From the human T2T-CHM13v2.0 reference genome, Homo sapiens: DNA of 64,000 bases. A program made the translations under genes and the position numbers. The notes under the pieces are model-generated. The model was not told the origin of the DNA. It saw only the letters and a list, made by a program, of their open reading frames with translations, and did no database searches. Of the stretch, positions 19,356 to 19,751 are shown one piece after another (position 1 is the stretch's first letter; each line of letters starts with the position of its first letter). Where the stretch lies: assembly GCF_009914755.1 (NCBI RefSeq), contig NC_060932.1; one strand, given 5' to 3'.

Positions 19356-19751
19356 ACGCCTATAATCCCAGCACTTTGGGAGGCTGAGGCAGGTGGATAA
19401 CCTGAGGCGAGGAGTTTGAGACCAGCCTGACCAATCTGGTGAAACCTTGTCTCTACTAAAAATACAAAAAATTAGCTGGGCGTGGTGGCAGACGCCTGTA
19501 ACCCCAGCTACTCGGGAGGTGCCTTGTGGTAAAAGATGGGCCAAGGAGTTTTTGGTTTTAAAGCGAAAGCCTGTAATCACTGTGCCTGCTCACAGGGGGA
19601 TTGCTATGGCTAAGTTCATAGATAATTGGGTAGTTGGCTGAGGCAGGAGAATCGCTTGAACCCGGGAGGTGGAGGTTGCAGTGAGCCAAGATTGTGCCGT
19701 TGCATTCCAGCCTGGGCAACAAGAGTGAAACTCTATCTCAAAAAAAAAAAA
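19356..19751 (+). mobile_element. AluS (Sq/Sp-like), slightly 5'-truncated, split by the NUMT
   Basis: TSD aaaagtcactttg (19343-19355 and 19748-19760); Alu resumes at ctgaggcaggag after the insert. Confidence 0.93.
19520..19637 (-). pseudogene. NUMT: mitochondrial ATP6 fragment (about codons 94-132) inserted in an Alu
   Basis: Reverse complement read in the vertebrate mitochondrial code gives [39 protein letters not shown] (TGA=W, ATA=M), matching ATP synthase subunit a. Confidence 0.93.

What the first reader, a model, noticed from the sequence alone, without database searches (positions are those of the whole stretch)
19520..19637. Mitochondrial ATP6 fragment (NUMT) inserted cleanly into the right arm of an Alu
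Seen: the Alu reads ...ctactcgggagg | 118 foreign nt | ctgaggcaggagaatc... with no Alu loss, only a gg at both junctions, no poly-A, and the Alu's own TSD intact. The reverse complement is an uninterrupted frame in the mitochondrial code ([39 protein letters not shown]). Knowledge: this matches MT-ATP6 at about m.8806-8923. Against the human sequence as I recall it, about 21 of 118 positions differ, mostly at synonymous sites. Inference: most divergence accumulated in living mitochondria, so this is a fossil of an ancestral primate mtDNA captured by end-joining repair after the AluS inserted. The host Alu caps its age. It is easily hidden by repeat masking and is transcribed antisense to ATP6 within MATN2 pre-mRNA.
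Basis: partly seen in the sequence, partly recalled or inferred. Interest (0 to 1): 0.8.

Follow-up and report, generated by a model that had tools for sequence, protein, structure and literature searches.

The report
Old mitochondrial ATP6 fragment inside an Alu
A 118-base piece of the mitochondrial ATP6 gene was pasted long ago into an Alu repeat in an intron of MATN2; it is a genuine but ordinary, already catalogued mitochondrial fossil.

Summary
Window 19520-19637 is 118 foreign bases that split the right arm of an Alu with no Alu base lost or gained. The Alu keeps its own 13-base target-site duplication. On the minus strand the insert reads as 39 codons of mitochondrial ATP6, residues 94-132 of the human protein (E 2.8e-17), starting at m.8806.

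It is an independent insertion. The best of the other nuclear copies in this genome is 86% identical over the full length. Differences from those copies are mostly third-position transitions, the mitochondrial pattern.

The translation is identical to the ATP6 of a living guenon and to the catarrhine consensus. It lacks two changes shared by human ATP6 and a younger chr5 copy. The source was therefore an ancestral catarrhine or early ape mitochondrial genome.

The junctions show 0-2 bases of microhomology, no deletion, no poly-A and no duplication of their own. This fits end-joining capture at a break.

It is not new. It is listed as Hsap_numt383 (GRCh38 chr8:97908037-97908155) and numt_817 (T2T chr8:99033515-99033637, fixed). 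One feature is mildly unusual: only 10 of 557 human copies were reported to lie inside a retrotransposon. I could not test primate presence or absence. Interest is low.

The parts
19343..19355 (+). 5' copy of the Alu's target-site duplication (AAAAGTCACTTTG)
   Evidence: The exact 13-mer is found only here and at 19748-19760 in the window.
19356..19519 (+). Host Alu, 5' part: left monomer, A-rich linker and start of the right monomer. It appears 5'-truncated, judged from my recall of the Alu consensus.
   Evidence: Aligned to 39 other Alu copies of the window. It shows 10 non-CpG substitutions, 8 CpG transitions and 3 indel columns against their majority consensus.
19520..19637 (-). NUMT: MT-ATP6 codons 94-132 plus one base, m.8806-8923, with the ATP6 sense on the minus strand
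   Evidence: Table 2 translation has no stop. Human ATP6 E 2.8e-17. 40 of 40 identical to Cercopithecus mona ATP6. Catalogued as Hsap_numt383 and numt_817.
19549..19559 (+). T5 and T4 runs inside the insert on the Alu's sense strand (Pol III terminator-like)
   Evidence: They argue that the Alu-plus-insert composite could not have been transcribed through by Pol III and retrotransposed (inference from established knowledge of Pol III termination).
19638..19739 (+). Host Alu, 3' part (rest of the right monomer)
   Evidence: Aligned to 22 other Alu copies over 19638-19737. It shows 5 non-CpG substitutions, 5 CpG transitions and 1 indel column.
19740..19751 (+). Alu poly-A tail (12 A). Its last four bases cannot be told apart from the start of the 3' duplication copy.
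19748..19760 (+). 3' copy of the Alu's target-site duplication

Best explanation
A 118-120 base double-stranded fragment of mitochondrial DNA, from within ATP6 (m.8806-8923), was captured at a chromosomal double-strand break and ligated by non-homologous end joining. The break lay in the right arm of an AluS-type element that already sat in a MATN2 intron. The event lost no chromosomal base and used at most 2 bases of microhomology (GG). The donor was the mitochondrial genome of a human ancestor on the catarrhine stem or early ape stem. My rough estimate is 20-30 million years ago. The donor was older than the source of the chr5:100.56 Mb NUMT, and the insertion is probably clearly younger than the host Alu. 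Since then the fragment has been an inert, fixed intronic pseudogene. Under the nuclear code its frame has a TGA stop. Shown: identity, boundaries, uniqueness in the genome, order of events (Alu first), and the mitochondrial type of the divergence. Inferred: the repair pathway, the date, and the lack of function.
For: Identity: E 2.8e-17, human ATP6 residues 94-132; 1932 of 1941 candidates at E<=0.001; the best hit is 40/40 identical; published BLASTN E 3.96e-20. Order of events: the Alu target-site duplication is intact and unique, the junction motif is uninterrupted in 22 other Alus, and T5/T4 runs lie in the insert. Independent insertion: of 16 other genomic matches the best full-length copy is 86% identical, and one partial copy is 89% over 71 nt. 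Among 24 other copies aligned, none is closer. Differences from the two nearest copies are 12 of 16 and 10 of 18 at third codon positions, and 15 of 16 and 16 of 18 are transitions. Those copies are larger NUMTs with other boundaries. Ancestral source: the peptide has 0 differences from C. mona and 1 from four other guenons. It has 4-5 from gibbons, 6 from orang-utan, 5-6 from human and 5 from tarsier. L35 is shared with gibbons, orang-utan and cercopithecines. S26 and A31, shared by human and the chr5 NUMT, are absent. Mechanism: 54% of lineage-specific primate numt insertions show no deletion, and microhomology of 0-7 bp is typical (PMC2567098, abstract and passages). Fixed in humans and present in GRCh38.
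Against: No primate genome or primate mitogenome DNA was available, so presence or absence at the orthologous locus was not tested and no DNA tree was made. The date rests on 39 residues, 118 bases and recalled rates. There is mild tension within the dating. About 17-18% divergence from human mtDNA suggests roughly 25-30 My, yet no amino-acid change has accumulated in the nucleus (P about 0.05-0.1 at 3-3.6% nuclear decay). The 0 differences from one guenon are partly a best-of-many choice, because position 24 varies F/L among catarrhines. The Pfam match alone is below its cut-off (17.1 against 33.9 bits), as expected for 39 residues. End joining is inferred from junction anatomy only.
Confidence: 0.9

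Rival explanations
1. Secondary copy: the 118 bases were copied from an older, larger nuclear NUMT by duplication, gene conversion or templated repair, not taken from mitochondria.
For: At least 24 other ATP6-bearing NUMT pieces exist in the genome, so nuclear templates were available.
Against: The best full-length paralog is only 86% identical. Differences from the nearest copies are third-position transitions, the pattern of coding mtDNA rather than of two decaying nuclear copies. The peptide is free of any replacement against the catarrhine consensus.
Confidence: 0.02
2. RNA-mediated capture: a cDNA of part of the ATP8/ATP6 transcript, not mtDNA itself, filled the break.
For: I found no positive evidence. 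Short filler fragments of either origin would look alike.
Against: There is no poly-A, no target-site duplication of its own, and both ends lie inside the gene, away from transcript ends. Tsuji et al. found no correspondence between NUMT ends and mitochondrial poly-A sites (PMC3467031, passage).
Confidence: 0.04
3. The insert entered an Alu source gene first, and the composite then retrotransposed to this locus.
For: The target-site duplication flanks the whole composite.
Against: No second copy of the insert above 86% identity exists in the genome. T5 and T4 runs on the Alu sense strand would terminate Pol III before the A-tail (established knowledge).
Confidence: 0.01
4. The donor was a divergent mitochondrial lineage brought in by hybridisation, so the insertion is much younger than its divergence suggests.
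For: High synonymous divergence from human mtDNA sits beside zero detectable nuclear-type replacement changes. Such readings have been proposed for other human NUMTs (cited in the introduction of PMC12129016).
Against: The tension is weak (P about 0.05-0.1) and rests on 39 codons. The simple reading, an old insertion with few nuclear hits, fits.
Confidence: 0.03

Closest known systems
Catalogued human reference NUMTs: Hsap_numt383 (Uvizl et al., MBE 2023, PMC10764098 supplement) and numt_817.chrM:8805-8928 (Nat Commun 2026, PMC13179385 Supplementary Data 3)
   Same: This is the same locus. The first row gives NC_000008.11 97908037-97908155, minus strand, ATP6, 83.333% over 120 columns. The second gives T2T chr8:99033515-99033637, minus strand, 'reference', 'fixed', present in GRCh38.
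   Different: The rows I saw do not mention the host Alu, the junctions or an age. The second entry extends 5 bases into the Alu on the left.
NUMTs lying inside retrotransposons (Tsuji et al., NAR 2012, PMC3467031)
   Same: A NUMT straddled by the two halves of one retrotransposon.
   Different: That paper reports the class as rare: 10 of 557 non-duplicated human NUMTs (sections 26 and 50). I could not see whether this locus is one of the ten. PMC13179385 likewise reports that fixed NUMTs are depleted in or near transposable elements, including SINEs (passage).
Numt-mediated double-strand-break repair (Hazkani-Covo and Covo, PLoS Genet 2008, PMC2567098)
   Same: No chromosomal deletion, 0-2 bases of microhomology, no duplication and no poly-A.
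   Different: Their 90 cases are human- or chimpanzee-specific and were checked against an empty orthologous site. Here the empty-site state is inferred from other Alu copies, and the event is much older.
chr5:100.56 Mb NUMT of this genome (locus L018)
   Same: It covers the same ATP6 segment and shares Ala10, the TCT codon 6 and Leu35 with this fragment.
   Different: It is a much larger NUMT with a whole 226-codon ATP6 frame, 90% identical to human ATP6. It carries S26 and A31 like human, so it comes from a later mitochondrial ancestor. It is 84.7% identical to this fragment.

Membership tests
NUMT (nuclear sequence of mitochondrial origin) | Significant similarity to the mitochondrial genome | tested here: met
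   Human ATP6 residues 94-132, E 2.8e-17. 40/40 identical to C. mona ATP6. Published BLASTN E 3.96e-20. Direct DNA comparison by eye covered only m.8806-8878.
NUMT (nuclear sequence of mitochondrial origin) | Embedded in nuclear chromosomal DNA, not an assembly artefact | tested here: met
   It is flanked on both sides by the halves of one Alu within chr8. It is listed as fixed in humans and present in both T2T-CHM13 and GRCh38.
NUMT (nuclear sequence of mitochondrial origin) | Not a functional nuclear gene (pseudogene) | tested here: met
   The frame is open only under table 2. Codon 16 is TGA, a stop in the nuclear code. It is a 39-codon internal piece with no start.
Primary (independent) NUMT insertion rather than a post-insertion duplicate | No closer nuclear paralog, and divergence from paralogs of mitochondrial type | tested here: met
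   The best full-length paralog is 86% identical. Differences are dominated by third positions and transitions.
NHEJ capture of filler DNA at a double-strand break | Junctions with little or no microhomology, no target-site duplication, no poly-A, little or no deletion | tested here: met
   The pathway itself (Ku/Lig4 dependence) cannot be tested from sequence.
AluS subfamily (host element) | Dimeric Alu with A-rich linker, A-tail and target-site duplication | tested here: met
AluS subfamily (host element) | Subfamily-diagnostic positions against the reference consensus | tested here: inconclusive
   No reference consensus was at hand. Against the majority consensus of 39 and 22 window copies it differs at 28 of 259 aligned positions, plus 4 indel columns. 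The AluS label rests on my recall of diagnostic stretches.

The most novel reading that the evidence does not exclude
The fragment is much younger than its roughly 17% divergence from human mtDNA implies, because its donor was a deeply divergent mitochondrial lineage that entered the human ancestral line by hybridisation. That would explain why it shows many synonymous, mitochondrial-type differences but not one nuclear-type replacement change.
Probability: 0.03. Interest if true: 0.6.

Novelty: already known. Interest (0 to 1): 0.12.

Why it matters
It matters little beyond bookkeeping. It is one of several hundred fixed human NUMTs and is already in two catalogues. It is a tidy example of two known points. 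First, a NUMT can freeze an ancestral mitochondrial sequence: here the peptide equals the catarrhine consensus. Second, NUMT capture can repair a break without loss of chromosomal bases. The host Alu serves as a built-in record of the empty site. Its position inside an Alu puts it in a class reported as rare (10 of 557). That could be useful to anyone asking why breaks inside retrotransposons so seldom take up mtDNA. For practice, it is short and about 83% identical to mtDNA, so it is unlikely to disturb heteroplasmy calling.

Tried and rejected
(1) I looked for chrM in the held assembly. G000 has 24 contigs and no mitochondrial genome, so the full 118-base comparison with human mtDNA and any mitogenome tree were impossible.

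(2) The T2T NUMT catalogue of PMC10671835 gave nothing. The held supplement is cut at 4 million characters and contains no 'chr8' at all, so it says nothing either way.

(3) The PMC3228558 supplement holds only PCR-validated NumtS, and this locus is not among them. It did supply human mtDNA letters for m.8665-8878.

(4) The PMC3314570 supplement had no matching coordinate.

(5) The primate comparison tables of PMC13179385 (Supplementary Data 8-9) are not in the held, cut file. The PMC5703718 supplement is a PDF.

(6) The PMC10764098 supplement had four occurrences of the coordinate prefix, of which I saw one row. The look-up cap (15 of 15) was then reached, so any orthology or age assignment there was not seen.

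(8) The Pfam scan of the 39-residue peptide was below the cut-off. I rejected it as a test because of the short length and used PDB and protein-database searches instead.

(9) I considered and rejected chance similarity, a secondary nuclear copy, retrotransposition of the composite, and any coding or selected role. A 39-codon frame staying open is unremarkable, because only about 4.5% of single changes create a stop.

(10) I ran no further search on platyrrhine ATP6 states.

Full report
**Observation.** The window reads ...ACTCGGGAGG, then 118 bases unrelated to Alu (19520-19637), then CTGAGGCAGG.... The 28-base Alu motif that spans this point, uninterrupted, occurs 22 times elsewhere in the window at 3 or fewer mismatches. 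Shuffles give 0 expected. So the host Alu has neither lost nor gained a base at the insertion point. The insert ends in GG, and so does the Alu part before it. The junction can therefore be drawn at three positions, which amounts to 0-2 bases of microhomology. The Alu's own 13-base target-site duplication (AAAAGTCACTTTG) sits at 19343-19355 and 19748-19760 and nowhere else in the window. A 12-A tail precedes the 3' copy. The insert has no A-tail and no duplication of its own.

**Identity.** The reverse complement translates under the vertebrate mitochondrial code into 39 residues without a stop. Under the nuclear code, codon 16 (TGA) is a stop.
- Against all PDB chains the best match is human ATP synthase subunit a (8h9f_N), residues 94-132, E 2.8e-17, 34 of 39 identical. 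Bovine, ovine and porcine subunit a follow.
- Pfam ATP-synt_A is hit below its cut-off (17.1 against 33.9 bits), as expected for so short a piece.
- A supplement of PMC3228558 prints human mtDNA J01415.2 8665-8878 aligned to another chr8 NUMT. By its numbering our fragment starts at m.8806, so it ends at m.8923.
- Compared by eye, 10 of the 73 bases m.8806-8878 differ. Nine are synonymous and one changes Thr to Met at codon 22.
- I did not see human mtDNA for the last 45 bases, because the held assembly has 24 contigs and no chrM. In that stretch four residues differ from the human chain. A published BLASTN row gives 83.333% identity over 120 columns.

**Independent insertion or nuclear copy.**
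- A DNA search of the whole assembly found 16 other matches. The best full-length one (chr17:23.2 Mb) is 86% identical. Two others, chr9:5.10 Mb and chr5:100.56 Mb (found), are 85%. A partial one on chr8:20.8 Mb is 89% over 71 bases.
- With loci found through the Pfam family search (37 matches), I aligned 24 other copies. None is closer.
- The near copies are parts of much larger NUMTs with other boundaries.
- Differences from the two nearest copies are 12 of 16 and 10 of 18 at third codon positions. Transitions make up 15 of 16 and 16 of 18. That is the pattern of evolution in a coding mitochondrial gene, not of two decaying nuclear copies.
- The insert carries T5 and T4 runs on the Alu's sense strand. 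These would terminate Pol III. Together with the absence of a second copy, this excludes retrotransposition of an Alu that already held the insert.
- So the order is Alu first, then the mitochondrial fragment at this locus.

**Source and age.** A search of the large protein database with the 40-residue translation (one codon into the Alu, to meet the length minimum) gave 1932 hits at E<=0.001 among 1941 candidates. The first of the 120 listed is Cercopithecus mona ATP6, 40 of 40 identical. Other guenons follow at 98%, then macaques, baboons and colobines at 88-95%. No ape is listed. A second search, with the intact 226-codon ATP6 frame of the chr5 NUMT, supplied human, gibbon, orang-utan, Colobus and tarsier sequences. 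I tabulated 30 named proteins over the 39 residues. Three unnamed rows gave no segment and were dropped.

| Taxon | Differences from the fragment (of 39) |
|---|---|
| C. mona | 0 |
| Four other guenons | 1 |
| Gibbons | 4-5 |
| Orang-utan | 6 |
| Human | 5 (PDB chain) or 6 (cluster representative) |
| Tarsier | 5 |
| Non-primate mammals (dog, mongoose, manatee; pig) | 4; 8 |

- Leu35, which looked like a private change, is shared with gibbons, orang-utan, Colobus and cercopithecines. It is therefore the ancestral catarrhine state.
- Ala10 separates catarrhines from tarsier, from non-primates and from the older NUMT copies.
- Ser26 and Ala31 are shared by human and the chr5 NUMT but absent here. 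This fragment therefore comes from an earlier mitochondrial ancestor than that copy.
- The gibbon and orang-utan differences are private to those lineages and set no bound.

The host Alu differs from the majority consensus of 39 (left half) and 22 (right half) window copies by 15 non-CpG substitutions in 223 non-CpG sites (6.7%). It also has 13 CpG transitions and 4 indel columns. About 69-75% of random changes in the fragment would alter the peptide. If the fragment were as decayed as the Alu, the chance of no replacement would be about 0.004-0.006. At 3-3.6% decay it is 0.05-0.10. The fragment is therefore probably clearly younger than its host. This test is weakened because the zero is a best-of-many match and position 24 varies among catarrhines. 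Using recalled rates and split dates, I put the insertion roughly 20-30 million years ago, on the catarrhine or early ape stem. This is an inference, not a measurement.

**Mechanism.** The junction anatomy is that described for numt-mediated double-strand-break repair by non-homologous end joining. In that study 54% of 90 lineage-specific primate insertions showed no deletion, and microhomology of 0-7 bases was usual (PMC2567098, abstract and passages). I infer the same pathway here. I cannot strictly exclude capture of a cDNA, but nothing supports it.

**What is known.** The locus is already catalogued twice.
- Hsap_numt383: NC_000008.11 97908037-97908155, minus strand, ATP6, in the supplement of PMC10764098.
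- numt_817.chrM:8805-8928: T2T chr8:99033515-99033637, minus strand, 'reference', 'fixed', present in GRCh38, in Supplementary Data 3 of PMC13179385.

The one feature that is uncommon is the position inside a retrotransposon. Tsuji et al. found only 10 of 557 non-duplicated human NUMTs within a retrotransposon, against roughly 13% expected (PMC3467031, sections 26 and 50). PMC13179385 reports that fixed NUMTs are depleted in or near transposable elements, including SINEs (passage). I could not see whether this locus is one of Tsuji's ten.

**Context and function.** By the hub's annotation the site lies in a MATN2 intron, upstream of the exon at 42414-42983. MATN2 is on the plus strand, so the pre-mRNA would carry the ATP6 antisense. 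I saw no expression data and no sign of any function.

**Verdict.** What I add is that the frozen peptide equals the catarrhine consensus, and that the fragment is older than the chr5 copy and probably younger than its Alu. The finding is an ordinary, already catalogued NUMT, so interest is low. The primate presence/absence test that would fix the date could not be run with these tools.

Noticed in passing
L018:1489-2166 (G000 C5, about 100.56 Mb), minus strand: This large chr5 NUMT keeps a complete 226-codon ATP6 frame under the mitochondrial code. It is 90% identical to human ATP6, 85-86% to gibbons and 81% to orang-utan. Two unnamed database proteins predicted from other contigs are 96% identical to it.
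   Followed up: partly
G000 C2:130710679-130710796 and C2:131815948-131816065; also C7:57410757-57410874 and C7:57434029-57434146: The two chr2 NUMT copies are identical to each other over the 118 aligned bases and lie on opposite strands. They look like one NUMT carried along by a segmental duplication. The chr7 pair, 23 kb apart, is similar but not identical.
   Followed up: no
whole assembly G000: No NUMT close to modern human ATP6 was returned. A variant id in the supplement of PMC13179385 (chr1-54655-SV-INS-5873, paired with position chr1:629052) suggests that the well-known 5.8 kb chr1 NUMT of GRCh38 is an insertion relative to CHM13. I did not check this.
   Followed up: no
window 19818-19935: About 60 bases after the Alu's 3' duplication copy lies a separate short Alu-like monomer fragment on the plus strand, without an obvious A-tail.
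   Followed up: no
window 19494-19519: The break point lies right after the GGGAGG of the right arm. By my recall this is the right-arm counterpart of the 26-base Alu 'core' reported as a rearrangement hot spot. This is recalled, not tested, and a single case proves nothing.
   Followed up: no
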